The notes below the pieces were generated by a model. The model was not told the DNA's origin, searched no databases, and worked only from the letters and a program-made list of their open reading frames with translations. Shown piece by piece: positions 6,707 through 64,000 of a stretch of DNA of 64,000 nt. The position numbers and the translations under genes were made by a program. Source of the DNA: Kiritimatiellia bacterium (GTDB taxonomy: Bacteria; Verrucomicrobiota; Kiritimatiellia; UBA8416; YA12-FULL-48-11); the NCBI GenBank assembly GCA_028716365.1, contig JAQUPZ010000001.1, forward strand, positions 839,393-903,392, written 5' to 3'. The first letter of the stretch is position 1; every line of letters begins with the position of its first letter.

Positions 6707-6966
6707 AGCAGTTAATCCTAATATAATATTTATATCAGACTTGAGTATAAATGACAAAGGCTTAATGTGTTGATATGAAAGGTGGGGTAAGTACAACGGC
6801 ATTATCGCCTATTCTCATTCGAAGATCAGTTACTTTTGCAACGTAACGGTCGATCGTTCATTTCCCATATGTGCCATTTCCGGACAAAAGGTTCAATTAT
6901 TTCTGTTTTATGTTTATCAGTCATAAATTTGTGATAATGTTCATATCCGTTTGGAGAGAGGTGCAT

Positions 6967-15073: not shown

Positions 15074-15084
15074 GACTCTTCAAG

Positions 15085-40028: not shown

Positions 40029-40808
40029 ATGAGACCCGTAAATATGATCCGGTACTTTCTAACCGTACTGATTGTTGTGGTCCTCGTGTCGATTGACTTG
40101 GGGATATCTGCTCCGGCTTTATCCGGTAAAGCTAAAATACTGGTTCTTACCGGTAACGAGTATCCCGGGCATAAATGGCGTGAAACTGCTCCATTAATTG
40201 CTAAGTTTCTTGCGACTGATTCACGGCTGACGGCTGAGGTCAATAATGACCCGCAGTTTCTTGCTTCTCCACAGTTACACGAGTATGACGCAATCGTACT
40301 CAACTATCTTAACTGGAAGTGCCCTGATCCCGGTGAAAAGGCCCGCGCGAACTTAAAGAAATTTGTAGAAGGTGGAAAAGGGCTTGTGATTGTGCATAAT
40401 GCGTGTGCTGCTTTCGGGGAATGGCCAGAGTTCAAGGAAATTGCCGGTCGCGCATGGAACCCGAATCGTGTACACGGCCATGATCCTAATGGATCGTTTC
40501 AGGTCGAAATTACAAATGTAGATCATCCGATCACGAAGGGAATGAAGTCATTTGTGACAACGGATGAACTGTACACCTGCCTTTTGACCAATGGTCCTCC
40601 GGTCGAGGTTCTGGCCAAGGCCATGTCGAAAGTCGAAAAGAAGGATCATCCGATGGTCATTGTAAATCATTACGGGAAAGGGCGCGTGTTTCTCTGCGTT
40701 TTGGGGCATGACGTGGCGGCTCTCAGCGTTGAAGCTGTACAGGAACTTTATCGACGCGGGACTGCCTGGACTGCTAGATTGTCGCCTGATAATGGAGAGG
40801 TATATTGA
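40029..40808 (+). CDS. Secreted ThuA family protein
   Basis: A signal peptide is present. ThuA-like blocks are present (KILVLTGNEYPGHKW, YDAIVLNY, GKGLVIVHNA). Confidence 0.65.
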   Translation: MRPVNMIRYFLTVLIVVVLVSIDLGISAPALSGKAKILVLTGNEYPGHKWRETAPLIAKFLATDSRLTAEVNNDPQFLASPQLHEYDAIVLNYLNWKCPDPGEKARANLKKFVEGGKGLVIVHNACAAFGEWPEFKEIAGRAWNPNRVHGHDPNGSFQVEITNVDHPITKGMKSFVTTDELYTCLLTNGPPVEVLAKAMSKVEKKDHPMVIVNHYGKGRVFLCVLGHDVAALSVEAVQELYRRGTAWTARLSPDNGEVY

Positions 40809-45432: not shown

Positions 45433-46005
45433 ATGAGTAAATTTGTTGCTGGTATGGTTTGGGTGGTTTTCCTTTGCCTTTCCTGTGCCTGGGCAGGTGA
45501 CAATACCGAAATGAAAATTCAGAATCTTGTTGCCGTGTCCGGAAAAGTCTATGTCAGTGGTGTTGGTAATTTTAAAGCTGGAATGAAGCAGTATATTGAT
45601 AGGGACTACATCTTTGACTACATACCGGCTTTTCTTCAGGGTGCCACTCATATTCTAACTGCCGGCAATGACAAGTTCATTGACGAAGAAAAACCATGTT
45701 TAAGCTTCGAAGTAAATATTCCTGTCTCCGTTTACATTGTTTATGGCGACAAACTGCGTGTTATTCCCTCATGGCTGAAGGAATTTGAGGATACGCGATG
45801 GAAAGTAACGCGAAAAGACTCCAATGCCACTACTTTGAAGGGTATTTTTACGCTTTTCCGGAAAGATTTTTCTGCTGGAAAAATTACTCTGAATGGGAAC
45901 CTGTCGAAGGCAATGGCAAATGACCCGGAATTCAAGAAGATGAAGGGTGGTACCTTTTGCATGTATACTGTTGTCGTTGTCCCTAAAAGCAGCCGTCAGG
46001 AGTAG
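45433..46005 (+). CDS. Small secreted hypothetical protein
   Basis: A signal peptide is present (cleavage after AWA). A good SD (GGAGGAG-like) lies upstream. Confidence 0.5.
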   Translation: MSKFVAGMVWVVFLCLSCAWAGDNTEMKIQNLVAVSGKVYVSGVGNFKAGMKQYIDRDYIFDYIPAFLQGATHILTAGNDKFIDEEKPCLSFEVNIPVSVYIVYGDKLRVIPSWLKEFEDTRWKVTRKDSNATTLKGIFTLFRKDFSAGKITLNGNLSKAMANDPEFKKMKGGTFCMYTVVVVPKSSRQE

Positions 46006-52565: not shown

Positions 52566-55295
52566 TCAGTGTTTCATTGAGACCAGATCGCGGCGTGGAT
52601 TTTCCCAGGCCTTATTGACAGCGGTTTCGATGAGTTGAAGAATGCTTTTATAGTCTGAATCATCCTGGTTTTTGTAAACCGATTGTCCACATTTGTCCGT
52701 ACCACCCATATTTTTAGCAAGAGGTGCTTTTAGAAACAGGCTTTTTGCAGGGTTGTAAATATCGATCCAGTCCAGGCGCGAGATTTCAGAGGGTTTGTGG
52801 CATGTAACACAGCGCTTTTCATGTACAGCAGCGATCTGTTTTGCCAGTTCCATGTCGGCGGCAAGATCGTAAGCTGGTTGTTTGGGCCTCTTGTTAACAA
52901 AATGGTCATGATATGGCGCATTGGAATCTATCCACATTGTCAGTCGCAACCTGTCTTCAGCACTTAGCTTTACACGTTTGGCATGGGGTTCTTTGTTGAG
53001 CACATCAATGAGTTTGCTTTTATGTGAGCCATAGGCCAGCGGCGGCGTAACGGTTGCATCCTGCTTGCGTGCTGGTGAACACGAGACAAGGTCGTTGGCC
53101 ATGATGGTTGCATAGGCGCGGTTGTAGCCGTAGCCCGGTACTGCCAGGTCAAAGGATGTCAGGCCGCCGCAGAAATTCAAACCACCGGCTGGTTTCAATC
53201 CGCCATGACACCGCACGCAGTGCCAGTCGAGTACCGGCTGGACATCGCGCAGGAAATTGACTGTCCGGTCGCCCCATGGCGGAGGAATTAGATCAGATGG
53301 GGGTCGTTGCGCAGCAAGCGGAACAGGAGCGAGGCGCGGTACGATATTACGCGTTTCGTGGCAGCCGGCGCAGGAACGGCGTTCACCGGGTTGGAAGCTG
53401 ATGAAACTGCGCATACGGCGGAGTTCCATATGGTTCTGATCGAGCAATTGAAAATATACTGCCGTGTCCATCGGCACGCGGAAGTGCGCGCTGCCGTCGC
53501 GTTCGACAGGCACATCGCCGAGAATACGCACGGGTGTCCAGTTATCGAGAATACGCTTTTCACCGCTCGGTTTCTGACAGTTGTGGTCTTCGACATATCG
53601 CTGGCCACCGTGCTGGTTGTCGTATGGCCAGCCAACCGGCTCGGCGATGCGGAGATAGCGAATACGTTCCGGGGCTATGCCGTTACAGCCAAAACTCGCG
53701 TCACTGACAACACACGTTGCGTATGGTACATTCAAGTCCACGAGTTCAGGCAGTACGGGTGGACGCGGCCGGGCACGCAGAGGGATCGGTATAAAACACG
53801 AAATGTCCGGATCACGATAGAGCAGTTCCTTCGTGCCGAAAACATCAATGAGATACAGTGCATAACCTTTTGGATCAACTTCGCTCGCCAGTCCTGTCTT
53901 GCCGGTGCCATAACTGTAGGAAACAAGAAAAGTTTTTGCTGAGAGCGGCCACGGATACATGTAAAAGCCGCCCCGGTCGAACGCGCCACCTTCCTGCACT
54001 GGTACGCCGTCCATGCCGCCTTCGGGTGGTTTTACGCCGGGAGTAACGATGCCGATACCGCGTGGTTCGTTAATGCCGGGCGCGGTGTCAATGATTACCA
54101 CCGGCCCGGCAGCAAGTGTGTGGTGTCCGGTGGCGATGGCGACGAGTTTACGAATACTGGGAATTGAACGGACCTCTTCCAGTGCCCACGGGTTGGTAAA
54201 ATGCTGTTTGAATATCGCATCTGCGCCGGTACCGTCGGGCCGGATAAACCACAGCGACTGGATAAACGCGAAACTGCGTTCGTGATATTCCCAGCGAGTG
54301 TAGCCGATGGTACCATCATCAAGCGTGTGCGGCAGGTAGTCACCGTCTTTGTTGACACTGAGCCTACGGATACCACTGCCATCGGGTCGCATGACATAAA
54401 GATTACAACTGGTTTCATCCTTGTCGTATTCATTGCACTGGAGCGACGTACCACAACGTTCAGAGACGAATACGATGTCACCGTTGGGCGCATAGGTCGG
54501 GTCGAGATCACTCCACTCTCCGCTGGTAATCTGTCGTAGCCGGCTGCCATCCGTGCCAACCTCGAAGATGTGAATGGGCTCTTCCGAGCGCCGCAAGTCA
54601 TAATTTGTCCGGCGATCAAGCCAGCCTTCCGGTGGTTCATTACTTTTTGCCTTTGCGTAACCAAATACTATGCGACTGCCATCCCACCAGAGATCCATGC
54701 CGTGGACATGTCCCGGTCCCAATGTGCCCTTAAGAATATTTTTAGTTTGTGGCTTATTTTCCGGTCCAGTCATGGAGAGAATGCACAAATCTCCTCCGGG
54801 CCGGGAAACCCATGGCATGTGGTTCAGGCAGACATCAGGATAAGTCTGCTGCCCGAAACGTTTCACGAACAGGAGGCGATCGAAATTTAGCAATGGATTT
54901 CGGAAGGCAAGCCGGCGAAACGTCCAGCGGACATTAAGATAAAGCGCCTTCTGTGCATCGATAGAAGCAGTATTAGAAGATTGTGATGCTGCAACGCTGA
55001 ACTCTTGATCGTTAAACTCCTGTTCAAACGAAGTTGTATCAATACCCTGCTTTTTGAGATCAGCTGCCAGTAAACGTCCCCGTTCGATAAAATAATGAAT
55101 AGGTTTTTCGAATTCCGATTTCTGCTGTGCCACTCCAGTGGTATTGGTTTGTATTGAAGTAATTGGATCCCAGGCTTTGGCTTGCTTCAACCAGTCGTCT
55201 TCTATCTGGTCACGCATTGATGTTGCTGCCTGATTGATCCCGGCGGCGAACAGCATGCTGATGAGGAACAAGACATTTACTTTACATTTATTCAT
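52566..55295 (-). CDS. Secreted PD40 beta-propeller multi-heme (3x CXXCH) protein, HzsA-like family, paralog 3
   Basis: A signal peptide is present. CAGCH, CVRCH and CVTCH are present. Family motifs are conserved (TRWEYHERS, YLIDVFGTKELLY, IPIPLRARPRPP, DVPVERDGSAHF, YFQLLDQNHMELRRMRS, WIDSNAPYH). Confidence 0.8.
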   Translation of the reverse strand: MNKCKVNVLFLISMLFAAGINQAATSMRDQIEDDWLKQAKAWDPITSIQTNTTGVAQQKSEFEKPIHYFIERGRLLAADLKKQGIDTTSFEQEFNDQEFSVAASQSSNTASIDAQKALYLNVRWTFRRLAFRNPLLNFDRLLFVKRFGQQTYPDVCLNHMPWVSRPGGDLCILSMTGPENKPQTKNILKGTLGPGHVHGMDLWWDGSRIVFGYAKAKSNEPPEGWLDRRTNYDLRRSEEPIHIFEVGTDGSRLRQITSGEWSDLDPTYAPNGDIVFVSERCGTSLQCNEYDKDETSCNLYVMRPDGSGIRRLSVNKDGDYLPHTLDDGTIGYTRWEYHERSFAFIQSLWFIRPDGTGADAIFKQHFTNPWALEEVRSIPSIRKLVAIATGHHTLAAGPVVIIDTAPGINEPRGIGIVTPGVKPPEGGMDGVPVQEGGAFDRGGFYMYPWPLSAKTFLVSYSYGTGKTGLASEVDPKGYALYLIDVFGTKELLYRDPDISCFIPIPLRARPRPPVLPELVDLNVPYATCVVSDASFGCNGIAPERIRYLRIAEPVGWPYDNQHGGQRYVEDHNCQKPSGEKRILDNWTPVRILGDVPVERDGSAHFRVPMDTAVYFQLLDQNHMELRRMRSFISFQPGERRSCAGCHETRNIVPRLAPVPLAAQRPPSDLIPPPWGDRTVNFLRDVQPVLDWHCVRCHGGLKPAGGLNFCGGLTSFDLAVPGYGYNRAYATIMANDLVSCSPARKQDATVTPPLAYGSHKSKLIDVLNKEPHAKRVKLSAEDRLRLTMWIDSNAPYHDHFVNKRPKQPAYDLAADMELAKQIAAVHEKRCVTCHKPSEISRLDWIDIYNPAKSLFLKAPLAKNMGGTDKCGQSVYKNQDDSDYKSILQLIETAVNKAWENPRRDLVSMKH

Positions 55296-55304
55296 GTCAA
55301 ACTT

Positions 55305-58300
55305 TTAGTCTTCTTCCACAATTATACGGAATCCAACGTTGTAAACCCGTTGAAACTGACGGTAAGGCAGGCGGAAGCTTGAGGTACATCGGAATGGCCG
55401 GTCATACCATGAACCGCCGCGGACAACGCGTTCGGTGCCGGCAGGAACATCTTCAACCTGGTTCCGTCCATCATCATCTTTATATGGATAAGGTTTGTAA
55501 GTAGATCTGGTCCATTCCCAGGCGTTGCCATGCATATCGTGAAGACCCCATGGATTTGGTTTATATTTGCCGACTAATTCTGTCACAAAACCTCCGTCAT
55601 TAAACCTGGTGTCATGTGGTATCCAGTCATCATATTTGCCTGGATTTTTATATGCGGCAGCCTTCCAGTCCTGTGTATATGGATTACCCGCGAAATAGGA
55701 CAACATCTTATCGCCGAGATTGGCGAACAGCGAAAAATCGGTGTTGATATCACCGTACCAGAATTGGGAGGACGTACCCGCGCGACAGGCCCATTCCCAT
55801 TGTGCTTCTGTTGGTAGAGTTACTTTCTTGCCTGTTTTCCGGGAAAGCCATTTACAAAAAGCCATAGCTTCTTCCCATGATATGCGTATTGCAGGTTGAT
55901 CCGGCTGGTCCTGATCATAACCGGTGATCCCGAACTGATAGCCATGCCGGTCTTCATTCCGGCTTTCGTGTTTTGGATTGAACTGCAGGTACATGGCATT
56001 TGAGATCTCAACTTTGCTCATCCAAAATCCCTTCTTGATTTTTACCAGCGTTGCGGGACTCTCGTCAAAATGACCGGCAGTACTGCCCATAATAAATTCA
56101 CCTGCAGGTATCCACACGAGATTTGCAAAGGCCGGGTTTTCATTTAGAAGGTAAACAGTTCTACCTGGATTTTTTTCCGTCTTTTTGCACCAGACTTCTT
56201 TCCTGTCCACATCAAACAGGGAAACCGTAACGCCGGCCAGGCGTTCCATGGCGCAATCTGTTCGATTCCATATGACTAAACGTTCAATGGTTGTAACAGC
56301 GCCGAGGTCAACTTCCCACCATTCGTTTTCTCCATTGCCGGTATGGGCTAGGGAATTTTTCGCATATTCACCATCTGTATTTCCATCAACAGCACGGCTT
56401 GCCGAACAAACCCCGTAAGTGCTGGACTGTGTTGCCTTTTTCCCGACGGCAATGTTCTGTCCGCCGGCAAAAACCTGTACTTCTGCAAAATTCATCCAGC
56501 GGTTGGGGCCGGCAGTTATACGGACATAGCGGCATTGAATCGGGGTTTGTTTTTTGTCTGCCAGTGACAAATTCAGAATTCCGGAAGTACCTGATGGAAC
56601 AGTCTCTTTTTGTTTGGTTACAGCGACTGCCGTATCGAAAGGCCAACCGGAAGCGTTTTCGGTTGTTAACTGTTGCCTGCCCGAGCCGATGCTCGGTGTC
56701 GGCCAGGGATTTTTGATTTCGGATGGCTTGACTGGTGTGGAATCATATTCTGGCGTTTCAGGAATTTCTTCGTAGTTGGGGAAAGGACCCATAGATACGT
56801 ATTTCCTTCGAAACTCCTGTGCACGACCCACCACGGTTTTAACGTGAGGTTGTTTGTCGAACGGAGGGATCTCGCCCCAGGTGCCATAATAGGGAGCATT
56901 CATGTCTGTCCACGCTGTCAACCGTTCCCATGATTCTGCATCGATCTGGACACCATGATGACCTTTTCGAAGAATCTGGCCGAGTTCTGTGGAACTGAAA
57001 TGGAAATCCATGGAAGAAAACATCCGGCGATCACCTTCAATACCGGCCCGGCGTACAAATCGCTGGAGTTCAAAATAAGTTTTGGTGAATTTGCCGCCGC
57101 CGCCCCAGTGTCCGGACTGCTGGGTTTGCCAGTCTGTCAACATTTCGTCGCCTTTAAAGTTTGGTATTGGGTTGCCGTCATTTGTCTTGAGATCTTTAGA
57201 ACCGTGACATCCTGTGCAGTACCTGTTCAAGACGGGTTGAACTTCCCGCATAAAACTGAACCCGCGTGTTGGTCCATACCACGATTTGATTGTGGAAGGT
57301 TTGTTTCTAGCCGCTGACGAAGAATGGGTGATCGGGGCCTCAATTGGTGATTCATGACAGCCAATGCAGGAGACATTTTCGCCCGGCATGGCAGTGAGCC
57401 ATGAACGCATCAACTGAAGGGCCTGGCCTTTTTCGTCAAGCGGCTGAATTGCCAGCGGCGTGTTTGCCGGGATGATGAAATATGCGGAGCCGTCAGGTTC
57501 AACCGGGACTGTTCCGATTATGCGCTTGATGTCCCAGGGACCATCGAAGCCGAGAGTTCCGTAAAGCCCGCCCATTCCGCGGTGAGAGAAATAGTATTCA
57601 TATATTCTGAGTCGTTTGACTGTTCCGCGCGCCACGCCTTCAAGGCCGGGACCGGCATGGATATCGATTATATGAGCAGTAGCGGTGTCAATGGCGAGAT
57701 TGATACGCGGCGGTATGGTGATAGGTTCTGTAGTTTTCTGAACAGCAATCGGTTGTAAAAGGGCGGAACCTTCAATTTCTTTGATGAGCGTCAGGTTGTC
57801 GAAAGTGTCTGCCAGATAGATACCCCAGAGACCATCGGATTGCAGCATTATTGATACGATATGGTATTTCTCGCTTAGCGGAAATGGAGTCAGGAATTGC
57901 GGCCAGACACCATTTACAAGGGTGTCTCTGACCAGCGGTTCTGTGTGTTTACCGTAGCCGGGGATTTCCTGGACTATTCCATCTCCATCACGCTGGCCCT
58001 GTGCCGGATCGAGAATTAACAGTCTACCGGCCCGTGCAACACCATGATGGCCTGATGCTATTCCTATTATATGCCGTGGGTTGCCGGGGAGGGGACGGGC
58101 ATAAAAGAAGGAACCAGGGAAGAATGATCCGCTCCGGGAATAAGCGCGCTGATCGGTTCCATCAGGGTTCATGTGGAAAATCATGCGCGAATTGGCATGG
58201 GCGGCATCCGTGTATTCCCAGCGCTGGTATAGAATGCGACCGTTGGGAAGCACAACAGGACTCCAGTCGTGCTCCTGTTCGAATGTCAACTGGCGGATTG

Positions 58301-59474
58301 TGCCGGAACGCGTATCGAGGCGGTAGAAGTTGGCTATATGTGAACTACCAAAAACACATGGTACGCCAAGAAAAGTGGCGGTGGAACTGAAGAGAATATC
58401 TCCTCCCGGAAGATAACAGCCTTCATAATTATCAACATCATTGTCGATATTTGGCGTGACCTGGCGCAGGTTTTTTCCATCGAGTCCGATCTCAAACACC
58501 TGGTAGCAGCCGTTTGTACCTATTGAAGAAAAGAGAAGCCGGTCGGCATTGAAATGAAGACAAAGGTCACCTGCAAATCCACCATCGCCCGGTTTATAAA
58601 GTGTGGTTAATTTTGCTTCAGGATCCTTCAGGGACATGGACATAATTTCATTGTCGTAACCTTTTTTGGGTAATGAACTATTACCCTGCCAGTTTTGCGG
58701 CAGGCCCGGATGGCCTGAGAGTCCGCGACGGACTAAAATTATTTTATCAAATTCCAGAAGTGGATTAGCGAGCAGGGCAGAACGTACAGCGTTAGCCAGC
58801 TTGTCTGCTTCTGCAAGTGCCTCTGGTTCTGATTCCTTTAATGACTGTAATAGGACATCACGTTTCTGTTTGAATTCATCTAGGCTCTTCAGATGGGGCG
58901 TTGCATTGTATTTATCCGGCCATGTCTTCGCCATGTCGAAAATGGCGCGACCAACTGCCTCGATGTTTATGGATTCGATGCGGCGGATGGTGTCGCTGAA
59001 TTGCATGGATTTCCTGTAAATCTCCCGTACCTGCATCAGTTGGGTTAGGGATGTTGTGGATTCAGCTATTGTTGTTGCTTCCTTTGTTAAGGTTGCGTTG
59101 CAGGCACGGACATAACGCCGGGCCAGTTCACGGAAATCACCCGGTTTCCAGTCGGCGGACCAGACCGTGGTTATCTCGGTTTTGTATAACCGGTCTTTCA
59201 GCATTTCGGGGAAATCACGTTTCAACATGTTGGAAAGCTGTTCGCGTGCATTACGAAGTTGAGTTTGTGCTTTTATATCATCGGCCTTGACTGGAGCCTG
59301 GCTGGCAAGCGCTTCCCGGGCGGCACGCATCGTTTCCAGCCAGGTATCTTTTTTTTCGTACCAGGATGGGTCTTTGGCGAGGGCAGGGGTTGACGTCATC
59401 ATGATAATGGTTATTGCAATGAGAAAAGCCATGATGTCCTTTAATCTCTGGAGAGTAATTCTGCCGTATTTCAT
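55305..59474 (-). CDS. Secreted HzsA-like PD40 beta-propeller di-heme protein (paralog 4) fused to an F5/8 discoidin domain and a C-terminal FGE-sulfatase (SUMF1-like) domain
   Basis: A signal peptide is present. CIGCH and CTGCH are present, with the family motifs. The discoidin-like block is at approx nt 56234-56684. The FGE-like block is at approx 55305-56180 (LPTEAQWEWACRAG, NPWGLHDMHGNAWEWT, RGGSWYDRPFRC, GFRII). The start codon overlaps the IclR stop (ATGA). Confidence 0.75.
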   Translation of the reverse strand: MKYGRITLQRLKDIMAFLIAITIIMMTSTPALAKDPSWYEKKDTWLETMRAAREALASQAPVKADDIKAQTQLRNAREQLSNMLKRDFPEMLKDRLYKTEITTVWSADWKPGDFRELARRYVRACNATLTKEATTIAESTTSLTQLMQVREIYRKSMQFSDTIRRIESINIEAVGRAIFDMAKTWPDKYNATPHLKSLDEFKQKRDVLLQSLKESEPEALAEADKLANAVRSALLANPLLEFDKIILVRRGLSGHPGLPQNWQGNSSLPKKGYDNEIMSMSLKDPEAKLTTLYKPGDGGFAGDLCLHFNADRLLFSSIGTNGCYQVFEIGLDGKNLRQVTPNIDNDVDNYEGCYLPGGDILFSSTATFLGVPCVFGSSHIANFYRLDTRSGTIRQLTFEQEHDWSPVVLPNGRILYQRWEYTDAAHANSRMIFHMNPDGTDQRAYSRSGSFFPGSFFYARPLPGNPRHIIGIASGHHGVARAGRLLILDPAQGQRDGDGIVQEIPGYGKHTEPLVRDTLVNGVWPQFLTPFPLSEKYHIVSIMLQSDGLWGIYLADTFDNLTLIKEIEGSALLQPIAVQKTTEPITIPPRINLAIDTATAHIIDIHAGPGLEGVARGTVKRLRIYEYYFSHRGMGGLYGTLGFDGPWDIKRIIGTVPVEPDGSAYFIIPANTPLAIQPLDEKGQALQLMRSWLTAMPGENVSCIGCHESPIEAPITHSSSAARNKPSTIKSWYGPTRGFSFMREVQPVLNRYCTGCHGSKDLKTNDGNPIPNFKGDEMLTDWQTQQSGHWGGGGKFTKTYFELQRFVRRAGIEGDRRMFSSMDFHFSSTELGQILRKGHHGVQIDAESWERLTAWTDMNAPYYGTWGEIPPFDKQPHVKTVVGRAQEFRRKYVSMGPFPNYEEIPETPEYDSTPVKPSEIKNPWPTPSIGSGRQQLTTENASGWPFDTAVAVTKQKETVPSGTSGILNLSLADKKQTPIQCRYVRITAGPNRWMNFAEVQVFAGGQNIAVGKKATQSSTYGVCSASRAVDGNTDGEYAKNSLAHTGNGENEWWEVDLGAVTTIERLVIWNRTDCAMERLAGVTVSLFDVDRKEVWCKKTEKNPGRTVYLLNENPAFANLVWIPAGEFIMGSTAGHFDESPATLVKIKKGFWMSKVEISNAMYLQFNPKHESRNEDRHGYQFGITGYDQDQPDQPAIRISWEEAMAFCKWLSRKTGKKVTLPTEAQWEWACRAGTSSQFWYGDINTDFSLFANLGDKMLSYFAGNPYTQDWKAAAYKNPGKYDDWIPHDTRFNDGGFVTELVGKYKPNPWGLHDMHGNAWEWTRSTYKPYPYKDDDGRNQVEDVPAGTERVVRGGSWYDRPFRCTSSFRLPYRQFQRVYNVGFRIIVEED

Positions 59475-60313
59475 GATGCCATCTCCATTTTTTCGTTTTG
59501 ACTGTCGTTATGGTTCAACCCGTAGCCTAACCTTCTGGAGATTTCGGCGGTATACTTTTTCATGAGCGTGCCGATGCGGGGAAAAGCGGAGATGGGCATC
59601 CGTTCTGCTGGACCTGTTGTCGTTATGGCCGCGACTGGATACCCCTGGTAATTTAGCACAGGCGTGGCAACACAATGCACTCCGTGCAGCGCTTCGGCAC
59701 GGTCGACAGCGTAACCGTTACAACGTGCCATTGCCAGTTCGTTTATGAAATCTTTACGACAGGTGATTGTCGTGGCGGTCATGCGTTTGAACGAAATTCC
59801 TTTAATAATGTCTTCTCGTTCTTTTGCCGGAAGAAATGCGAAAATAATTTTCGTGGAGGCAGAGGCGTAGATGACGGGTTGACGCGTGCCGGGATCGCAT
59901 ACAAAACGAAATGGATGAAGTCCCTGGACCTGTTCCAGAACGATACCTTCGCCGCGGTCAAAAATACTGATAACGACGGTTTCTGTGATCATGTCCCGGA
60001 GACGGCGCATAACATCCAGGGAGGACTCCATCAAAGTACGGTCCTGGGCAGAGCCGTAAGCGAAGGTGACCATTTTCCTGCTCAGCAGGTAACGAAGGGA
60101 GTCGGTGTCACGTGTTATATATTCGTGTACGCTTAAGGTGTTGAGAATTCGATATACCGTGTTTTTAGGAAAGTGGAGTTCTCGTGCGATTTCGCTGAGG
60201 GTAAGTCCCTGAGGATGAAGGCGAAGATGGTCGAGAATGGTCAGTGTGCGATGAAGTATCGGTACTCCGGTCCCTCCTTTTCCCGCGGGAGATTTCTTTG
60301 TGGCTGGTTTCAT
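59471..60313 (-). CDS. IclR family transcriptional regulator
   Basis: An N-terminal wHTH is present (LTLSEIARELHFPKNTVYRILNTL) with an IclR effector domain. A strong SD (AGGTGG) lies 4 nt before the ATG at 60313. Confidence 0.8.
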   Translation of the reverse strand: MKPATKKSPAGKGGTGVPILHRTLTILDHLRLHPQGLTLSEIARELHFPKNTVYRILNTLSVHEYITRDTDSLRYLLSRKMVTFAYGSAQDRTLMESSLDVMRRLRDMITETVVISIFDRGEGIVLEQVQGLHPFRFVCDPGTRQPVIYASASTKIIFAFLPAKEREDIIKGISFKRMTATTITCRKDFINELAMARCNGYAVDRAEALHGVHCVATPVLNYQGYPVAAITTTGPAERMPISAFPRIGTLMKKYTAEISRRLGYGLNHNDSQNEKMEMAS

Positions 60314-60396
60314 AGGTCCACCTTGTTCCTTAGATGGTCTAATGTTCCTGTATTGGTACGATAATTCTGGTGCCAGGTCAACCAAAATTATTGAAT

Positions 60397-60428
60397 AAAA
60401 AAAGGGCCCTCGATTGAGGGCCCTTGTT
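60397..60428 (-). terminator. Rho-independent terminator of the permease gene
   Basis: The stem is GGGCCCTC-gatt-GAGGGCCC. On the minus strand it is followed by a 7-nt U-run. It lies 23 nt downstream of the minus-strand stop codon at 60446. Confidence 0.7.
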
Positions 60429-60445
60429 ACTGACAGTTTCTGATG

Positions 60446-61795
60446 TCAATGTCCGCCGCGGGTTGGATCCACATGCATGGATTCCGCCTTGCTGAACTTG
60501 GGCCAGAAGTAACCATAGAAGGAAACAAATGCAAAGCAACCCAGCGGTACGATGAATGCACGTGACATGTCGTACAAGTCGCCAACATGCCCCATCAGTT
60601 TAGGGAGAATTGCACCCCCCATGATTGCCATTACAATATAAGATGAAGCTTTCTTTGCTCTTGCACCGAGCCCGTAAATCCCGAGAGCAAAAATCGTCGG
60701 GAACATGATGGACATGAAGAAATAGCTGAGGAATACACAAACTACAGAGATCCATCCAAGCTTCAGGAACACGAGAAGGCAGGCCATGACGTTCATGAGA
60801 CCGTAAAGGCCAAGGACCTTGTGAGCTGAGAATGTTCTAAGAATGGCAGCGCCGGAGAAGCGGCCTATAAGGAAGCATACAAAACCTACAGAGGCCAGCT
60901 TTGCAGCGCCCTGGTCGGTCAGCCTGACGGCTCCTCCTGCTGTGCCTGGTTCAAGCCAGCTTTTCAAAAAACCGGAAGTCCAGGATTCAGGTAATGGAGG
61001 TACCTGTGAAGTCATGTAATTGATGAAGAAACTGAATATACCGGCCTGGGCAGCAACATACAGGAATTGTGCAATTACGGCCAATACGAAGTGAGGATGA
61101 GTCCAGATTGAATGTGAAACGTTCGGAGCAGAATCATCCAGGTGGTAAGTATCCTCTGTTTTGATGTCGGGAACGTTGGCAAAATAAAATATTATTGCCA
61201 GAACAAGCACAACTACGCCTACAGCTGCGTATGGTATCCAAAGTGTTGCAGACCCGGTGCTTTGACCGCTTGAGTCTTTTCCATAGAAGAACGCGGCACC
61301 AGCGATTGGGCCAAAAATCCAGCCGATACCGTTACAGGACTGTGCGAGGTTGATACGAGTTGCCGCGTAACGCTTGTCGCCCAGCACGGTGGTATACGGA
61401 TTGGCGATCGTTTCAAGGAAAGTGAGACCAGCGGCGATGACGCAAACTCCCAACAGGAAGGCCCAGAAGGAAGCGATTTTAGTCGCGGGGATAAACCAGA
61501 ATCCGCCGACGGCCACCATAAGGAGTCCGGCAATAATACCGCCTTTGTAACCCAGTTTGGTTGCCAGCCAGCCTGCTGGAATTGCCATGAGAAAATATCC
61601 AAGATAATGTGCGAACTGTACCCATGCAGATTGGGCAAGTGAAAGCTTAAGTTCCGTCTGGAAATGCTTATCCATCACGTCGATCATACCGTTGCAGAAT
61701 CCCCAGAGGAGGAACAACGAGCTTACAAGGATGAATGTGACCACTACGTTCCTTCCGTCATCCGTTACGAACATGCTCTTTTTTTCTGTACTCAT
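60446..61795 (-). CDS. fucP: MFS sugar:H+ symporter, FucP/glucose-galactose (GGP) family
   Basis: A 12-TM profile is present. A FucP-family N-terminal block is present (LLWGFCNGMIDVMDKHFQ). Confidence 0.7.
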   Translation of the reverse strand: MSTEKKSMFVTDDGRNVVVTFILVSSLFLLWGFCNGMIDVMDKHFQTELKLSLAQSAWVQFAHYLGYFLMAIPAGWLATKLGYKGGIIAGLLMVAVGGFWFIPATKIASFWAFLLGVCVIAAGLTFLETIANPYTTVLGDKRYAATRINLAQSCNGIGWIFGPIAGAAFFYGKDSSGQSTGSATLWIPYAAVGVVVLVLAIIFYFANVPDIKTEDTYHLDDSAPNVSHSIWTHPHFVLAVIAQFLYVAAQAGIFSFFINYMTSQVPPLPESWTSGFLKSWLEPGTAGGAVRLTDQGAAKLASVGFVCFLIGRFSGAAILRTFSAHKVLGLYGLMNVMACLLVFLKLGWISVVCVFLSYFFMSIMFPTIFALGIYGLGARAKKASSYIVMAIMGGAILPKLMGHVGDLYDMSRAFIVPLGCFAFVSFYGYFWPKFSKAESMHVDPTRGGH

Positions 61796-61963
61796 ATTGG
61801 GTTGTACTCCTAATGATTTCGAAACGATTTCTCAGCACTGCTATTTGCTGGATCGCCCTTTCAGTCCAAGCCACACAATTTCGCGTTTTTGTATTATATT
61901 CACTGTGATTGCACAAGCCCCAATTATTGTTTAGGGATTCCGGGCTTTTAAACTATTCAGCTT

Positions 61964-61992
61964 GTTGACGTAAAAGGACAAGTAAAGTATAA
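61964..61992 (+). promoter_or_regulatory. Putative sigma70-like promoter (TTGACG-17-TATAAG)
   Basis: The -35 element is at 61964-61969. The -10 element is at 61987-61992 with a 17-nt spacer. It lies about 58 nt upstream of the ATG at 62051, in a divergent intergenic region. Confidence 0.35.
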
Positions 61993-62050
61993 GCGGGAAA
62001 TCAAGACGGTAAAATGGTGAGAAAAGACGGGATATTCGGGAGGATAAACT

Positions 62051-63043
62051 ATGAAGAAATGGCTGTTAACGTTAGGATTTGGATTATGTATTGCTGTTCC
62101 TGTTATTGCGCAGAAAGTACCTACAGGCAACCCGAAAGATTTCAAGGTCAAGACATGCCTTCATTCAGTAAGTTACATGGGAATCTGGCGCGGTCAGGCA
62201 AAACTTACTGTCGATGAATTCCTTGTTAAAGCCAAGGAACTTGGTTACGACGGTATAATGCTCGTTGCAAAACGTCCGCATGTATCAGTGCTCGATTATG
62301 ACAGCGAAGCCCGGCGAAAATTAAAGGCCAGAATTAATGAATTGGGACTCGAACTTGTTTGCCTTGCAGGGTATTGCGATTTTACAGCGGGTATTGACAA
62401 GGTAGGTGTACCGAATGTTGAAATCCAGGCAGCCTACGTCGGTGAAGTGGCGAAACTTGCAAAAGACCTTGGTACCAGCATGGTACGAATATTTACCGGA
62501 TACGAGCGTCCTGGTATTCCTTACGATAAACAGTATGAGGCAGTACTTGAAGGTTTGAAACTTGCCGGCAAAGAAGCGGCGAAGTATGGCGTTACGCTTG
62601 CCGTACAGAATCACCATGACATTGGCCTGCATCACAATGCCATGTACTGGCTCTTGAAAGAAGTAAACCTGCCGAATGTTATGGCTGCCTGGGATGCATG
62701 GTCTCCAACCCTGGAAGGTTTGAGCGCCGAAGAAATCCGGCAATCTGTCTTCAAGATGAAGCCATATATAGTACATACAACGACAGCCGACTATATACGT
62801 ATCCCACGGTATAAGTATGATAATCATTTGACCAATTATCTCCTCCAGGATGCCGTTTTACGGGCTGTGCCAATGGGGGAAGGTATTGTTGATTACAAAA
62901 ATTTTATCAATGCCCTGAAGGAAATTGGTTACCAGGGTTATATAACCTACGAAATGTGCGAAGTACTTGATGGTGGTGGTTCGGTTGAGAATCTTGACAA
63001 GGCTGCCAGAAAGTTTCTGGAATACGTTCAGCAATTCAAATGA
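62051..63043 (+). CDS. Sugar phosphate isomerase/epimerase (xylose-isomerase-like TIM barrel), with signal peptide
   Basis: A signal peptide is present. An AP-endonuclease-2/xylose-isomerase-like TIM barrel is indicated (GYDGIML...VTLAVQNHHDIGL...TYEMCE). Confidence 0.65.
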   Translation: MKKWLLTLGFGLCIAVPVIAQKVPTGNPKDFKVKTCLHSVSYMGIWRGQAKLTVDEFLVKAKELGYDGIMLVAKRPHVSVLDYDSEARRKLKARINELGLELVCLAGYCDFTAGIDKVGVPNVEIQAAYVGEVAKLAKDLGTSMVRIFTGYERPGIPYDKQYEAVLEGLKLAGKEAAKYGVTLAVQNHHDIGLHHNAMYWLLKEVNLPNVMAAWDAWSPTLEGLSAEEIRQSVFKMKPYIVHTTTADYIRIPRYKYDNHLTNYLLQDAVLRAVPMGEGIVDYKNFINALKEIGYQGYITYEMCEVLDGGGSVENLDKAARKFLEYVQQFK

Positions 63044-63106
63044 TCGGGACATCGTTTAATTAGTGGGTTAATCCCGCTATTTGTACATAAGGAAACGAGG
63101 TGAAAA

Positions 63107-64000
63107 ATGCCTGATTTAAATCGTCGTGATTTTCTGAAGTCCGCTGGTTTTGGTACTGTTGCTTTTGCATTGCCGACATGGTTGAGGGCTGGAGAAACCA
63201 GGAAAAATCTACCAAATATAATTTATATCCTTTGTGATGACCTGGGTTATGGAGATGTGAAATGTCTGAACCCAGACGGTAAGATTGCTACGCCAAACAT
63301 GGACAAGCTTGCCGCGGGTGGAATGATTTTTACAGATGCGCATTCCGGTTCATCAGTTTGTACTCCGACGCGATATGGGGTGATGACCGGACGTTATTGC
63401 TGGCGGACGCGATTGCAAACCCACGTGCTTGGCGGATATTCTTCACGACTGATAACGCCCGGAAGAATGACAGTGGCTTCGCTTCTGAAGCAGAATGGTT
63501 ATGACACGGCCTGTTTCGGTAAATGGCATCTTGGCATGGACTGGGCAAGGACCACTGATGAACCGCTTCCTGATGAAATAAAGAATGCCACCAATGTCGA
63601 CTTCAGCAAGCCGGCTGTTGGTGGTCCGGTGGATTGCGGTTTTGATTATTATTATGGTATTTCCGCTTCACTCGACATGCCGCCTTTTGTTTTCATCGAG
63701 AACAATAAGACGGTGAGTATTCCCACGGAAATAACGAAAGAAGGCGGATACAGGGAAGGTTTGACGGCAAAAGGCTTCAAGGCTGTGGAAGTTCTTCCGA
63801 CTATCACTAGAAAGACTGTTGAGTATATTGACCGGATTTCGAAAAAGGCCAAGGATGGTACTCCTTTCTTTATATATATGCCTCTGAATTCTCCGCATGC
63901 ACCAATAGTTCCTGCCAGTGAATGGCAGGACAAAAGCGGGCTGAACAAATATGGCGATTTTGTGATGCAGACTGACTGGACTGTTGGTGAGGTAATGAAA
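63107..64000 (+). CDS. Tat-exported Cys-type sulfatase (3' partial, runs off window end)
   Basis: A twin-arginine motif (RRDFLKS) is present. The sulfatase signature SVCTPTRYGVMTGRY (C-x-P-x-R FGly motif) is present with LCDDLGYGD. The ORF track does not list it because there is no stop in the window. Confidence 0.85.
   Translation, partial: MPDLNRRDFLKSAGFGTVAFALPTWLRAGETRKNLPNIIYILCDDLGYGDVKCLNPDGKIATPNMDKLAAGGMIFTDAHSGSSVCTPTRYGVMTGRYCWRTRLQTHVLGGYSSRLITPGRMTVASLLKQNGYDTACFGKWHLGMDWARTTDEPLPDEIKNATNVDFSKPAVGGPVDCGFDYYYGISASLDMPPFVFIENNKTVSIPTEITKEGGYREGLTAKGFKAVEVLPTITRKTVEYIDRISKKAKDGTPFFIYMPLNSPHAPIVPASEWQDKSGLNKYGDFVMQTDWTVGEVMK

What the first reader, a model, noticed from the sequence alone, without database searches (positions are those of the whole stretch)
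52566..64000. Di-heme beta-propeller protein fused to discoidin and FGE-like domains, coupled to an IclR regulator next to a Cys-type sulfatase
The 1389-aa protein (55305..59474, -) joins three parts: an HzsA-like PD40 propeller with two CXXCH hemes, an F5/8 discoidin domain, and a C-terminal SUMF1/FGE-sulfatase-fold domain. Its start codon overlaps the stop of an IclR regulator gene (ATGA at 59471-59474). A second multi-heme paralog follows it. A Tat-exported Cys-type sulfatase (CTPTR) lies about 3.6 kb away on the opposite strand, after a FucP-family permease and a sugar-phosphate isomerase. I do not recall a heme-c/FGE-fold fusion as a described architecture. The whole protein carries a Sec signal peptide, so the FGE-like domain would be periplasmic. 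A canonical FGE acts in the cytoplasm before Tat export. Only one of the two catalytic FGE cysteines is evident (RPFRC). The domain may therefore be a redox-coupled or binding variant rather than a classical maturase.
Basis: partly seen in the sequence, partly recalled or inferred. Interest (0 to 1): 0.72.

Follow-up and report, generated by a model that had tools for sequence, protein, structure and literature searches.

The report
Heme protein with FGE-like tail
The 1389-residue exported protein really does join a hydrazine-synthase-alpha-like two-heme module, a discoidin domain and an FGE-fold domain. It belongs to a large, already catalogued but uncharacterised family of PVC-group bacteria, its FGE-like domain lacks the catalytic cysteines, and it has no conserved link to sulfatases.

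Summary
Observation confirmed. ORF 55305..59474(-) has Pfam HZS_alpha (1e-32), F5/8-type-C and FGE-sulfatase (1.6e-44), and two CXXCH motifs. Its ATG overlaps the iclR stop (ATGA). A 3-CXXCH paralog follows after 9 nt. FucP, a TIM-barrel protein and a Tat/CTPTR sulfatase lie upstream.

Interpretation only partly holds. The architecture is common: all 120 best database hits carry PF18582+PF03781. Nearly all of the best 80 species-genome loci span both modules (594 confirmed candidates). They come from Verrucomicrobiota, Planctomycetota, Kiritimatiellia, Hydrogenedentota and Lentisphaerota. The protein is 100% identical to an NCBI record named "SUMF1/EgtB/PvdO family nonheme iron enzyme".

Sulfatase synteny is absent (7/81 loci; FucP and TIM barrel 0/81). 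IclR lies directly upstream only in four close relatives. The lone loop Cys (RPFRC) is Cys in only 27/78 homologs, and the Cys336 position is Asp in 73/78. A classical Cu/Cys FGE is therefore excluded.

The N module matches HZS-alpha along its whole length (Foldseek 5e-27) but lacks the Tyr ligand and a beta-gamma partner. The window holds four HzsA-related paralogs among glycoside hydrolases.

Best reading: a self-contained periplasmic heme-c oxidoreductase of glycan catabolism, with a PvdO/PorK-like non-maturase FGE-fold domain. Function is untested.

The parts
59471..60313 (-). IclR-family transcriptional regulator. It is 280 aa from the ATG at 60313 (the ORF can be extended to a TTG at 60385). 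Its stop overlaps the start of the fusion gene (ATGA).
   Evidence: Pfam HTH_IclR 1.3e-14 and IclR_C 6.5e-31. NCBIfam hits are all below equivalog cut-offs. Overlap read. The 280-aa gene call comes from the NCBI record. An ortholog lies directly upstream of the fusion in L002, L003, L004 and L032.
55305..59474 (-). Fusion protein of 1389 aa: signal peptide, variable helical N-region, HzsA-like module (propeller, middle domain, di-heme c), discoidin domain, Cys-less FGE-fold domain.
   Evidence: It is 100% identical to an NCBI Kiritimatiellae MAG protein.
59376..59474 (-). Residues 1-33: Sec-type signal peptide (n-region with K/R, hydrophobic core, PALA/KD).
   Evidence: Read from the translation. 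No predictor was run.
57735..58757 (-). Residues ~240-580: TolB/PD40-type beta-propeller of the HzsA-like module. Family-invariant residues are R418, E420, Y421, H426, R430, H476 and H477. W419 is near-invariant (>=90%).
   Evidence: AF2 model has pLDDT 81.6 and pTM 0.85. Foldseek gives HZS-alpha 5c2v_A at 5e-27 and TolB at about 1e-12.
57351..57626 (-). Residues 617-708: HZS_alpha middle domain.
   Evidence: Pfam PF18582, 1.2e-32.
57354..57368 (-). Heme-binding motif 1, C703-I-G-C706-H707. It aligns to the heme alpha-I motif of hydrazine synthase alpha.
   Evidence: Invariant in 43/43 sequences. Aligned to CSGCH of 5c2v_A. The residue at +4, which is Tyr591 in HZS, is Ile here and Asn/Asp/Ser in the family.
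57204..57218 (-). Heme-binding motif 2, C753-T-G-C756-H757. It aligns to the heme alpha-II motif.
   Evidence: Invariant in 43/43 sequences. Aligned to CAMCH of 5c2v_A.
56154..56435 (-). Residues 1014-1107: F5/8 type C (discoidin, NedA-like galactose-binding) domain.
   Evidence: Pfam PF22633 2.3e-14 and PF00754 1.9e-8. In other family members CBM6, NPCBM or DUF4960 sits at the N-terminus, or a Mala_s_1-like domain at the C-terminus.
55320..56123 (-). Residues 1118-1385: FGE-sulfatase-fold domain without the catalytic Cys pair.
   Evidence: Pfam PF03781 1.6e-44. Profile search against PDB: PorK 2e-35, PvdO 2e-34, human FGE 1.6e-31. AF2 model has pLDDT 73.8. Foldseek top hit is PvdO at 2.4e-15, then human FGE.
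55386..55409 (-). Residues 1356-1363, W-Y-D-R-P-F-R-C. This loop occupies the place of the FGE Cys336...Cys341 copper site.
   Evidence: D1358 is conserved in 73/78, R1359 in 75/78 and P1360 in 76/78. C1363 is Cys in only 27/78. phmmer alignment to human FGE is. The loop is poorly modelled.
52566..55295 (-). HzsA-related paralog of 909 aa with a signal peptide and three CXXCH motifs (642, 693, 829). It lies 9 nt downstream of the fusion.
   Evidence: Homologs are 61-84% identical, from Verrucomicrobia, Lentisphaerae, Sumerlaeota and Pirellulaceae. NCBI names them 'HzsA-related protein' or 'discoidin domain-containing protein'.
60402..60425 (-). Terminator-like hairpin (10-bp stem, 7 G-C pairs, T-run) between fucP and iclR. 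It marks iclR-fusion-paralog as a transcription unit of its own.
   Evidence: sequence.
60446..61795 (-). FucP-type MFS permease. It is a neighbour and is not conserved with the fusion.
   Evidence: TIGR00885 scores 292.8 bits, above its cut-off. It is found in 0/81 related loci.
62051..63043 (+). Exported xylose-isomerase-like TIM-barrel protein. It is a neighbour and is not conserved with the fusion.
   Evidence: PF01261 7.9e-32. It is found in 0/81 related loci.
63107..64000 (+). Tat-signal, Cys-type (CTPTR) S1 sulfatase, cut by the window end. It is a neighbour and is not conserved with the fusion.
   Evidence: PF00884 1e-31. The motifs are shown. Sulfatase homologs lie within 10 kb in 7/81 related loci.
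6871..9477 (+). Third HzsA-related paralog (868 aa by the mechanical ORF call; two CXXCH motifs). A Mala_s_1-like/ASST-like propeller gene follows directly.
15085..17592 (+). Fourth HzsA-related paralog (835 aa, two CXXCH motifs), in the same + strand gene run as GH95, BNR_4 and GH123.

Best explanation
The protein is one member of a large family of exported, stand-alone redox proteins of the PVC group and allied phyla. I read it as an accessory oxidoreductase of complex-glycan catabolism, not as a sulfatase maturase.

**Proposed mechanism**
1. Sec export, followed by periplasmic attachment of two c-type hemes (inferred from the signal peptide and the invariant CXXCH motifs).
2. The HzsA-like module is the redox engine. 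It is a TolB-type propeller, a middle domain and a di-heme domain.
   - Heme 2 relays electrons. Heme 1 sits against a propeller face lined with family-invariant polar residues (R418, E420, Y421, H426, H476/H477).
   - The roles of the two hemes are inferred from HZS-alpha. The conservation is shown.
3. The discoidin domain tethers the protein to a galactose- or fucose-type glycan (inferred from the domain family and from the interchangeable CBM-type modules in relatives).
4. The C-terminal FGE-fold domain keeps the fold and, as judged against the human FGE sequence recalled from memory, its two structural Ca2+ sites. It has no copper-binding Cys pair.
   - It cannot make formylglycine by the known mechanism.
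   - It most likely works like periplasmic PvdO. It would be a cofactor-poor substrate-binding or dehydrogenase domain that needs an electron partner, here supplied in cis by the hemes.
5. The upstream IclR regulator controls iclR-fusion-paralog as one transcription unit (inferred from the ATGA overlap, the 9-nt gap and the upstream terminator-like hairpin).

The substrate is unknown.
For: **Architecture and family**
- The domain hits are significant.
- Both CXXCH motifs are invariant in 43/43 sequences.
- The N module is a full-length structural match to HZS-alpha (Foldseek 5.2e-27 over 800 columns, TM about 0.6) and is collinear with it in sequence.
- All 120 best hits combine PF18582 and PF03781. 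There are 594 confirmed candidate loci in species-representative genomes, and nearly all of the best 80 span both modules. Several genomes carry several copies.

**FGE-fold domain is not an FGE**
- The Cys336 position is Asp in 73/78 sequences. The only loop Cys is present in 27/78.
- The closest solved relatives are the non-FGE periplasmic proteins PorK/GldK and PvdO.
- All NCBIfam equivalog scores are far below their cut-offs.
- The domain is strongly conserved: mean column identity is 55%, and the polar residues H1169, S1171, D1255, H1315 and D1358-R1359-P1360 are near-invariant.
- PvdO precedent: it is needed for a two-electron periplasmic oxidation, is purified without a cofactor and inactive, and may need an electron-transport partner (PMC6206403).

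**Glycan context**
- CBM-type modules (discoidin, CBM6, NPCBM, DUF4960) are swapped among family members.
- The window holds four HzsA-related paralogs. Two of them sit in one same-strand gene run with GH95, BNR_4 and GH123.
- Nearly every protein in the window starts with a signal-peptide-like sequence.
- Relatives sit next to GH95, GH3/PL, GH2 and GH28 genes.

**Stand-alone character**
- No conserved neighbour exists. Upstream there are 111 Pfam families in 104 ORFs; downstream there are 107 in 101. No family exceeds 4 members.

**Operon structure**.
Against: - No experiment exists for any family member. A 2025 survey found no HzsA homolog outside anammox with a confirmed function (PMC12758564).
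- The glycan link rests on domain families and neighbourhood. These genomes are rich in such genes everywhere, so the background is high.
- I could not obtain model coordinates. The position of the FGE-like pocket relative to the hemes, and the position of the invariant propeller residues relative to heme 1, are therefore untested.
- The family-specific loops of the FGE-like domain are modelled with low confidence (residues 67-74, 145-187 and 248-257 of the domain).
- Three paralogs in the window lack the FGE-like domain, so it is not needed for the core activity.
- Resemblance to PvdO is no closer than resemblance to true FGEs or to the structural protein PorK (E-values within about 4 orders of magnitude).
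Confidence: 0.5

Rival explanations
1. Periplasmic, heme-coupled sulfatase maturation. The FGE-like domain would bind the CxPxR motif of exported sulfatases, and the hemes would remove the electrons. This would give an oxygen-independent route to formylglycine in sulfatase-rich anaerobes.
For: - A Cys-type sulfatase lies 3.6 kb away.
- The family occurs in sulfatase-rich phyla.
- Strictly anaerobic Kiritimatiellales carry 11-20 PF03781 genes whose role is called paradoxical (PMC6388578).
- The FGE fold is confirmed.
Against: - The loop has no conserved Cys.
- Sulfatase homologs lie nearby in only 7/81 loci, and no sulfatase family is among the top neighbour families.
- The neighbouring sulfatase has a Tat signal, so by established knowledge of the Tat pathway it folds and would be matured before export.
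- Multiple paralogs per genome carrying different CBM-type modules fit substrate-specific enzymes better than a general maturase.
- The sulfatase is in another transcription unit, on the other strand.
Confidence: 0.07
2. The HzsA-like heme site does all the chemistry. The FGE-fold domain would be only a C-type-lectin-like binding or docking module for a glycan, a protein or the cell envelope, as in PorK/GldK or the Treponema variable protein.
For: - The best profile match is the structural T9SS protein PorK (2e-35).
- TvpA and PorK are among the structural matches.
- HzsA-related paralogs work without this domain. There are three in the window, and a large family elsewhere.
- No known catalytic motif of any FGE-superfamily enzyme is kept.
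Against: - The domain is more conserved than the N module (mean column identity 55% vs 48%).
- Near-invariant charged and polar residues sit in the loops that surround the canonical active-site groove. This is unusual for a mere tether.
- Separate CBM-type modules are already present for binding.
Confidence: 0.25
3. Non-catalytic electron shuttle. The di-heme module would collect electrons from periplasmic sugar dehydrogenases (Tat-exported GFO/IDH/MocA, PQQ-type propellers) and pass them to the respiratory chain or another acceptor.
For: - The most frequent neighbours, though rare, are a GFO_IDH_MocA-like cluster (14/81 loci; its representative carries a Tat-type signal), PQQ_2 propellers and ThuA.
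- The same families are present in the window.
Against: - A 700-residue propeller plus middle domain with many invariant polar residues is far more than a shuttle needs.
- The neighbour associations are weak (at most 14/81).
Confidence: 0.1
4. A true hydrazine-synthase-like nitrogen enzyme acting on NO, hydroxylamine or ammonium.
For: - There is full-length fold and motif collinearity with HZS-alpha.
- It has been suggested that HZS-like enzymes form a broader family with alternative substrates (PMC10732223).
Against: - The window has no beta-gamma (CCP-type) partner. The four HzsA-related proteins are its only CXXCH proteins.
- The Tyr591 heme ligand is not conserved (PMC12758564).
- The NCBIfam hydrazine_alpha score is 48 bits against a cut-off of 800.
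- The hosts are heterotrophic glycan degraders, and the genes sit among glycoside hydrolases.
Confidence: 0.05

Closest known systems
Hydrazine synthase alpha subunit (HzsA, Kuenenia stuttgartiensis, PDB 5C2V chain A)
   Same: - The domain order is the same: TolB-type propeller, HZS_alpha middle domain, then two c-type heme motifs in the same order.
- Foldseek E is 5.2e-27 over about 800 columns. The profile search gives E 7e-18.
   Different: - Identity is only about 17%.
- There is no beta-gamma partner.
- The Tyr591 ligand of heme alpha-I is replaced (Ile here, Asn/Asp/Ser in the family).
- There are extra N-terminal helical, discoidin and FGE-fold parts.
- The host is a heterotrophic Kiritimatiellae bacterium, not an anammox bacterium.
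'HzsA-related protein' / 'HZS_alpha domain-containing protein' (database family without known function)
   Same: - The N module and all three other paralogs in the window belong here.
- The signal peptide, the W-E/D-Y, PDG and HH motifs and the two heme motifs are shared.
   Different: - Only this subfamily carries the C-terminal FGE-fold domain.
- Pairwise identity to the window's other paralogs is 25-29%.
Formylglycine-generating enzyme (human SUMF1, Streptomyces and Thermomonospora FGE)
   Same: - The fold matches (Foldseek about 5e-14).
- The conserved core motifs are present (LPTEAQWEWA, GNAWEWT, RGGSW, GFR).
- Asn/Asp residues at positions that match the two structural Ca2+ sites are conserved. 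This rests on my alignment to the human sequence recalled from memory.
   Different: - The Cu(I)-binding Cys pair is absent.
- The loop is about 3-5 residues shorter (a 3-residue gap in the alignment).
- There is an insertion of about 27 residues in the first Ca-site loop, with the length judged against the recalled human sequence.
- The domain is extracytoplasmic and is fused to a cytochrome.
PvdO (periplasmic pyoverdine-maturation protein, PDB 5HHA)
   Same: - It is the best structural match (2.4e-15), the second-best profile match (2e-34) and the best NCBIfam hit (1e-26).
- It is a periplasmic FGE fold without the catalytic Cys residues.
- It takes part in an oxidation and seems to need an external electron partner (PMC6206403).
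   Different: - PvdO is a stand-alone protein of about 280 aa in pyoverdine gene clusters of pseudomonads.
- The score here is 93.7 bits against a cut-off of 500.
- The loop motifs differ (IRGNDWGEPP vs RGGSWYDRP).
PorK/GldK (type IX secretion ring lipoprotein)
   Same: - It is the best profile match to the FGE-fold domain (2e-35).
- It shares the RGGSW-x-D motif.
   Different: - PorK is a lipoprotein that forms a ring with PorN in Bacteroidota.
- Neither a lipobox nor a T9SS context is seen here.
- The NCBIfam score is 93.5 bits against a cut-off of 350.

Membership tests
Formylglycine-generating enzyme (functional FGE/SUMF1) | FGE-sulfatase (PF03781) fold | tested here: met
   Pfam 1.6e-44. 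Foldseek to human FGE about 5e-14.
Formylglycine-generating enzyme (functional FGE/SUMF1) | Two catalytic, Cu(I)-binding cysteines (human Cys336 and Cys341) | tested here: not met
   The Cys336 position is Asp (73/78). The only Cys in the loop (C1363) is Cys in 26/43 and 27/78 homologs.
Formylglycine-generating enzyme (functional FGE/SUMF1) | Access to unfolded sulfatase substrate, in the compartment where sulfatases fold | tested here: not met
   The domain is exported behind a signal peptide and c-type hemes. The neighbouring sulfatase has a Tat signal. There is no conserved sulfatase synteny.
Formylglycine-generating enzyme (functional FGE/SUMF1) | Cys-to-formylglycine conversion activity | not testable with these tools
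   This needs biochemistry.
Hydrazine synthase alpha subunit | Propeller, HZS_alpha middle domain and two heme c motifs in order | tested here: met
Hydrazine synthase alpha subunit | Tyr ligand (Tyr591) four residues after the heme alpha-I CXXCH histidine | tested here: not met
   The aligned position is Ile711 here and Asn/Asp/Ser/Gly/Ala in the family. Published homolog analyses agree (PMC12758564).
Hydrazine synthase alpha subunit | Co-encoded beta and gamma (propeller plus CCP-type di-heme) subunits | tested here: not met
   The window has no other CXXCH protein. A beta-gamma-like protein is near the fusion in only 8/81 loci.
Hydrazine synthase alpha subunit | NCBIfam equivalog score (NF052339, cut-off 800 bits) | tested here: not met
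   48.4 bits.
HzsA-related / HZS_alpha domain-containing proteins (uncharacterised) | PF18582 above the gathering score, plus signal peptide and CXXCH pair | tested here: met
   112.8 bits against 26.6.
PvdO (dihydropyoverdine dehydrogenase) | NCBIfam equivalog score (NF051459, cut-off 500 bits) | tested here: not met
   93.7 bits.
PvdO (dihydropyoverdine dehydrogenase) | Periplasmic FGE fold lacking the catalytic cysteines | tested here: met
   This is a resemblance in working principle only.
PorK/GldK | NCBIfam equivalog score (TIGR03525, cut-off 350 bits) and lipoprotein signal | tested here: not met
   93.5 bits. The signal peptide has no Cys.
EgtB/OvoA/SenA sulfoxide or selenoxide synthases | N-terminal DinB-like iron-binding domain before the FGE-fold domain, plus the equivalog score | tested here: not met
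   Only the C-terminal FGE-fold part matches. Scores are 39-68 bits against cut-offs of 360-420. No DinB-type domain appears in Pfam.

The most novel reading that the evidence does not exclude
The covalent link of a Cys-less, PvdO-like FGE-fold domain to two c-type hemes may be a 'Rosetta stone'. It would show that this branch of the FGE superfamily consists of periplasmic dehydrogenases that hand electrons to cytochromes c. On this reading the HzsA-FGE family is a new, widespread class of oxygen-independent redox enzymes acting on glycans (or on exported proteins) in PVC bacteria. It would explain why strict anaerobes carry many 'FGE' genes, and it would suggest the missing electron partner of PvdO.
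Probability: 0.2. Interest if true: 0.75.

Novelty: new variant of a known kind. Interest (0 to 1): 0.38.

Why it matters
**Practical consequences**
- Counting PF03781 hits as "FGEs" in PVC genomes overstates their maturation capacity. At least this large subfamily cannot be a classical FGE. This bears on the noted paradox of many FGE genes in strictly anaerobic Kiritimatiellales (PMC6388578).
- HzsA homologs outside anammox are not rare curiosities. They form an expanded family of exported proteins, with four copies in this 64-kb window. They sit among glycoside hydrolases and often carry carbohydrate-binding modules. This points to glycan-related rather than nitrogen-cycle chemistry, and it is relevant to discussions of how hydrazine synthase arose.

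**If the heme/FGE-fold coupling is catalytic**
- The family would be a new type of accessory redox enzyme for polysaccharide breakdown.
- It would be testable by expressing one protein.

As it stands, the family is catalogued, generically named and functionally unknown. It is not a new discovery of sequence space.

Tried and rejected
1. **Conserved operon partners.** I ran tblastn of the window's IclR, FucP, TIM-barrel, sulfatase and M55 proteins against 81 related loci. I also clustered 816 neighbour ORFs all-against-all and ran Pfam censuses of the two nearest ORFs on each side. No conserved partner emerged. The best cluster (GFO_IDH_MocA-like) is in 14/81 loci.
2. **The RPFRC cysteine.** The phmmer alignment places it at human Cys341. 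By motif context (R-C-[TA]-[SA]) it could instead be the structural Cys346 that pairs with Cys235 (C1230 here). Co-variation does not support a conserved disulfide, because C1230 is Cys in 68/78 but C1363 in only 27/78. It is not conserved either way. I could not measure distances because model coordinates are not returned.
I repeated it with database proteins.
4. **Literature.** No paper in the library combines FGE, hydrazine synthase and cytochrome c. A search for FGE-sulfatase plus cytochrome c in Planctomycetes found nothing relevant.
5. **A conserved IclR operator.** Short palindromes exist upstream of iclR in the window and in L002-L004, but their sequences differ. Only a repeated GGAAC word is shared. 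I did not pursue this.
6. **Gene-fusion artefact (frameshift or misassembly)** is rejected. The same architecture recurs in all 120 top hits, drawn from independent assemblies.
7. **My first impression that the CBM-type module is always "in the middle"** was wrong. In other members it is N-terminal or C-terminal.
8. **Representative-library search with the FGE-like domain alone**. It showed the size of the superfamily (158,786 clusters). Its top hits are dominated by multi-repeat giants and by fragments. One genuine stand-alone exported copy was found (P0264).

Full report
**1. What is in the sequence**

ORF 55305..59474 on the minus strand encodes 1389 residues.

Pfam finds three domains, all far above their gathering scores:
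- HZS_alpha at residues 617-708 (1.2e-32).
- An F5/8 type C (NedA-like) discoidin domain at 1014-1107 (2.3e-14).
- FGE-sulfatase at 1118-1385 (1.6e-44).

Two CXXCH motifs lie at residues 703 and 753.

The neighbouring genes are:

| Coordinates | Strand | Product | Evidence |
|---|---|---|---|
| 59471..60313 | - | IclR regulator; its TGA stop overlaps the fusion's ATG (ATGA) | |
| 52566..55295 | - | 909-aa paralog starting 9 nt after the fusion's stop, with HZS_alpha and three CXXCH | |
| 60402..60425 | - | Terminator-like hairpin (10-bp stem, 7 G-C pairs, T-run) between fucP and iclR | |
| 60446..61795 | - | FucP-type permease, above the TIGR00885 cut-off | |
| 62051..63043 | + | Exported xylose-isomerase-like TIM-barrel protein | |
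| 63107..64000 | + | Truncated sulfatase with an RRDFLK Tat motif and CTPTR | |

The hairpin suggests that iclR-fusion-paralog forms a transcription unit of its own. The TIM barrel and the sulfatase are on the other strand.

The protein is 100% identical to an NCBI protein of a Kiritimatiellae MAG (GCA_028706615.1) named "SUMF1/EgtB/PvdO family nonheme iron enzyme".

**2. The N-terminal module**

An AlphaFold2 model of residues 235-960 has pLDDT 81.6 and pTM 0.85.
- Its best PDB match is hydrazine synthase alpha (5c2v_A). Foldseek gives E 5.2e-27, about 800 aligned columns and TM about 0.6.
- TolB propellers follow at about 1e-12.
- Sequence and profile searches give the same single PDB hit, with propeller, middle domain, heme motif 1 and heme motif 2 in the same order.

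The module is a full-length but distant HzsA homolog. It is not a hydrazine synthase, for four reasons:
- The NCBIfam equivalog score is 48 bits against a cut-off of 800.
- The tyrosine that ligates heme alpha-I in HZS (four residues after the CXXCH histidine) aligns to Ile here and to Asn, Asp or Ser in the family.
- The window has no beta-gamma partner.
- The literature states that non-anammox HzsA homologs are numerous, lack this Tyr/Zn site and have no experimentally confirmed function (PMC12758564; PMC10732223).

Family-invariant residues include both CXXCH motifs and a set of polar propeller residues: R418, E420, Y421, H426, R430, H476/H477 and C373. W419 is near-invariant. This argues for an enzyme-like site, not a plain electron carrier.

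**3. The C-terminal domain**

The fold is FGE-like.
- The AF2 model has pLDDT 73.8.
- Foldseek's best hit is PvdO at 2.4e-15, followed by human FGE at about 5e-14.
- A family profile hits PorK/GldK (2e-35) and PvdO (2e-34) slightly better than true FGEs (1.6e-31).

Residues that I align, from the human sequence recalled from memory, with the two structural Ca2+ sites are conserved. These are N1252 and D1293 for the first site, and D1313, G1316 and E1320 for the second.

The copper-binding Cys pair that defines functional FGEs is missing.
- The Cys336 position is Asp (73/78).
- The single cysteine of "RPFRC" is Cys in only 26/43 close homologs and 27/78 species-representative homologs. Otherwise it is Ala, Ser or Gly.
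- Instead, W-x-D-R-P, H1169, S1171, D1255 and H1315 are near-invariant.
- An insertion of about 27 residues (length judged against the recalled human sequence) sits in the first Ca-site loop.
- These family-specific loops are exactly the parts modelled with low confidence.

All NCBIfam equivalog matches (PvdO, GldK, SenA, EgtB, OvoA) are far below their cut-offs. The domain is a member of the FGE-fold superfamily but not of any characterised family in it.

**4. How common is the architecture, and what travels with it**

All 120 best hits in the 5.8-billion-protein collection carry PF18582 and PF03781 together. 2850 candidates scored E <= 1e-5.

- The two search patterns target the N module and the FGE domain separately, so some candidates may hold only one module.
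- Nearly all of the best 80 span both modules.
- They come from Verrucomicrobiota, Planctomycetota (Pirellulaceae, Planctomycetaceae, Phycisphaerae, Tepidisphaerales, Thermoguttaceae), Hydrogenedentota, Kiritimatiellia and Victivallales.
- A few MAGs are labelled Armatimonadota, Acidobacteriota, Nitrospiraceae or Bacteroidota.
- Several genomes have three or more copies.

Sources name these proteins [quoted passage not shown] or "SUMF1/EgtB/PvdO family nonheme iron enzyme".

Synteny in 81 related loci:

| Neighbour | Loci with a homolog |
|---|---|
| IclR, directly upstream | 4 (L002, L003, L004, L032) |
| IclR, farther away | 2 |
| Sulfatase within 10 kb | 7 |
| FucP | 0 |
| TIM barrel | 0 |
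| M55 peptidase | 0 |
| Second HzsA-related gene nearby | about 10 |

- Clustering all neighbour ORFs gave no cluster in more than 14 loci. The largest is GFO_IDH_MocA-like, and its representative carries a Tat-type signal.
- Pfam censuses of the two nearest ORFs found 111 families in 104 upstream ORFs and 107 families in 101 downstream ORFs. No family exceeded 4 members, and no sulfatase family was among the top 25.

The gene is essentially a stand-alone unit.

**5. Context that does carry information**

Accessory modules differ among family members:
- An internal discoidin domain in this protein and its closest relatives.
- N-terminal CBM6, NPCBM or DUF4960 in other members.
- A C-terminal Mala_s_1-like propeller in still others.
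- The FGE-less paralog family mostly carries an N-terminal discoidin domain.

The 64-kb window contains four HzsA-related genes, which are its only CXXCH proteins.
- Two of them sit in a + strand run: HzsA-like, Mala_s_1/ASST-like, GH95, BNR_4, HzsA-like, unknown, GH123 (6871-21223).
- The rest of the window encodes exported proteins typical of PVC glycan degraders. These include GFO_IDH_MocA, ThuA/FG-GAP, DUF6807, a SASA esterase, PQQ-type propellers, KDPG aldolase and an ECF sigma/FecR pair.
- Relatives of the fusion sit next to GH95, GH3/polysaccharide lyase, GH2 and GH28 genes.

This supports a role in complex-glycan catabolism. The support is weak because such genes are abundant throughout these genomes.

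**6. Mechanism**

| Shown | Inferred |
|---|---|
| Signal-peptide-like N-terminus | Export and heme attachment |
| Two invariant heme c motifs | Heme 2 as relay; heme 1 as reactive site facing the conserved propeller pocket |
| HzsA fold | Glycan tethering by the discoidin domain |
| Conserved propeller residues | A PvdO-like role for the FGE-fold domain |
| Swappable CBM-type modules | Control by the IclR regulator |
| FGE fold without the Cys pair | |
| Operon layout | |

PvdO is the nearest working analogy (PMC6206403).
- It is a periplasmic FGE-fold protein without the catalytic Cys residues.
- It is required for a two-electron oxidation.
- When purified it has no cofactor and is inactive.
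- It was suggested to need an electron-transport partner.

In the present family such a domain is tied covalently to two c-type hemes. This is an inference, not a test. The alternative, that the domain only binds something, is nearly as likely.

Sulfatase maturation is unlikely for four reasons. There is no conserved Cys and no synteny. The adjacent sulfatase is a Tat substrate. Many paralogs carry different CBM-type modules.

**7. Comparison and verdict**

The protein works partly like HzsA (fold, hemes) and perhaps like PvdO. It is a member of neither, nor of the functional FGEs, because defining features of each were tested and not met (see the membership table). It is a member of the uncharacterised HzsA-related / HZS_alpha-domain family.

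No paper in the searchable library describes the heme-c/FGE-fold fusion. The databases hold thousands of copies.

I rate it a new variant of known kinds. It is of moderate interest as an uncharacterised, widespread family. It also cautions against counting PF03781 hits as FGEs (PMC6388578). It is not the sulfatase-coupled oddity that was proposed.

Noticed in passing
window 6871-21223 (+): Same-strand gene run: HzsA-related (868 aa), Mala_s_1-like/arylsulfotransferase-like propeller, GH95 with a Laminin_G_3 domain, BNR_4, HzsA-related (835 aa), unknown 529-aa protein, GH123. It places two more HzsA-related di-heme proteins in line with exo-glycosidases.
   Followed up: partly
window 9491-10492 (+); P0042 and P0247: The Mala_s_1-like domain (PF22701, with weak ASST hits) is a separate gene right after an HzsA paralog in the window. 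In some homologs it is fused to the C-terminus of the HzsA-FGE protein. This fusion-versus-neighbour pattern suggests a functional link.
   Followed up: partly
window 52566-55295 (-): The listed best homologs of the 909-aa paralog are 61-84% identical across Verrucomicrobia, Lentisphaerae, Sumerlaeota and Pirellulaceae. They are much more similar to it than the fusion's relatives are to the fusion. Most homologs carry an N-terminal discoidin domain that this copy lacks. It also has a third CXXCH at residue 829.
   Followed up: partly
window 950-4207 (-) and 33981-35324 (+): A 1085-aa PQQ_2-propeller plus methyltransferase protein and a 447-aa PQQ_2-propeller protein. Homologs of both recur near HzsA-FGE genes in other genomes (7 and 8 of 81 loci). 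This is the weak but top-ranked neighbour signal, together with GFO_IDH_MocA.
   Followed up: partly
window 60314-60401 (-); L002 9100-9170; L003 9080-9145; L004 9120-9180: Upstream of iclR each ortholog has a TTGAC-type -35-like box. It is followed by a short palindrome whose sequence differs between orthologs (TTAGA-cca-TCTAA here, GGGAAcgcgaTTTCCC in L002/L003) and by a repeated GGAAC word just before the start codon. This may be an operator or a ribosome-binding region.
   Followed up: no
window 25192-28149, 31497-33317, 43049-45418, 45433-46005, 17724-19313 (+): Five sizeable ORFs (985, 606, 789, 190 and 529 aa) have no significant Pfam family. Most have signal-peptide-like N-termini.
   Followed up: no
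window 37881-39998 and 40029-40808 (+): A ThuA plus FG-GAP repeat protein and a second ThuA protein. FG-GAP (CRTAC1-type) proteins are reported next to HzsA homologs in other bacteria (PMC12758564). Here they lie about 15 kb from the fusion.
   Followed up: no
L010, L014, L019, L053: Some genomes carry two HzsA-FGE genes in tandem or within 10 kb. Several MAGs have three separate loci, for example CAYWNA01 and CAZURK01. This indicates paralog expansion.
   Followed up: no
P0264 (343 aa): A stand-alone exported copy of the same FGE-fold subtype. It has a signal peptide, 64% identity, WYDRPFRC and the long insertion, but no HzsA module. This shows that the domain can exist on its own.
   Followed up: partly
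top hits P0241-P0254: Giant proteins (1400-4400 aa) with 8-20 tandem FGE-sulfatase-fold repeats top the representative search by summed score. They form an unrelated but striking repeat architecture of this fold.
   Followed up: no
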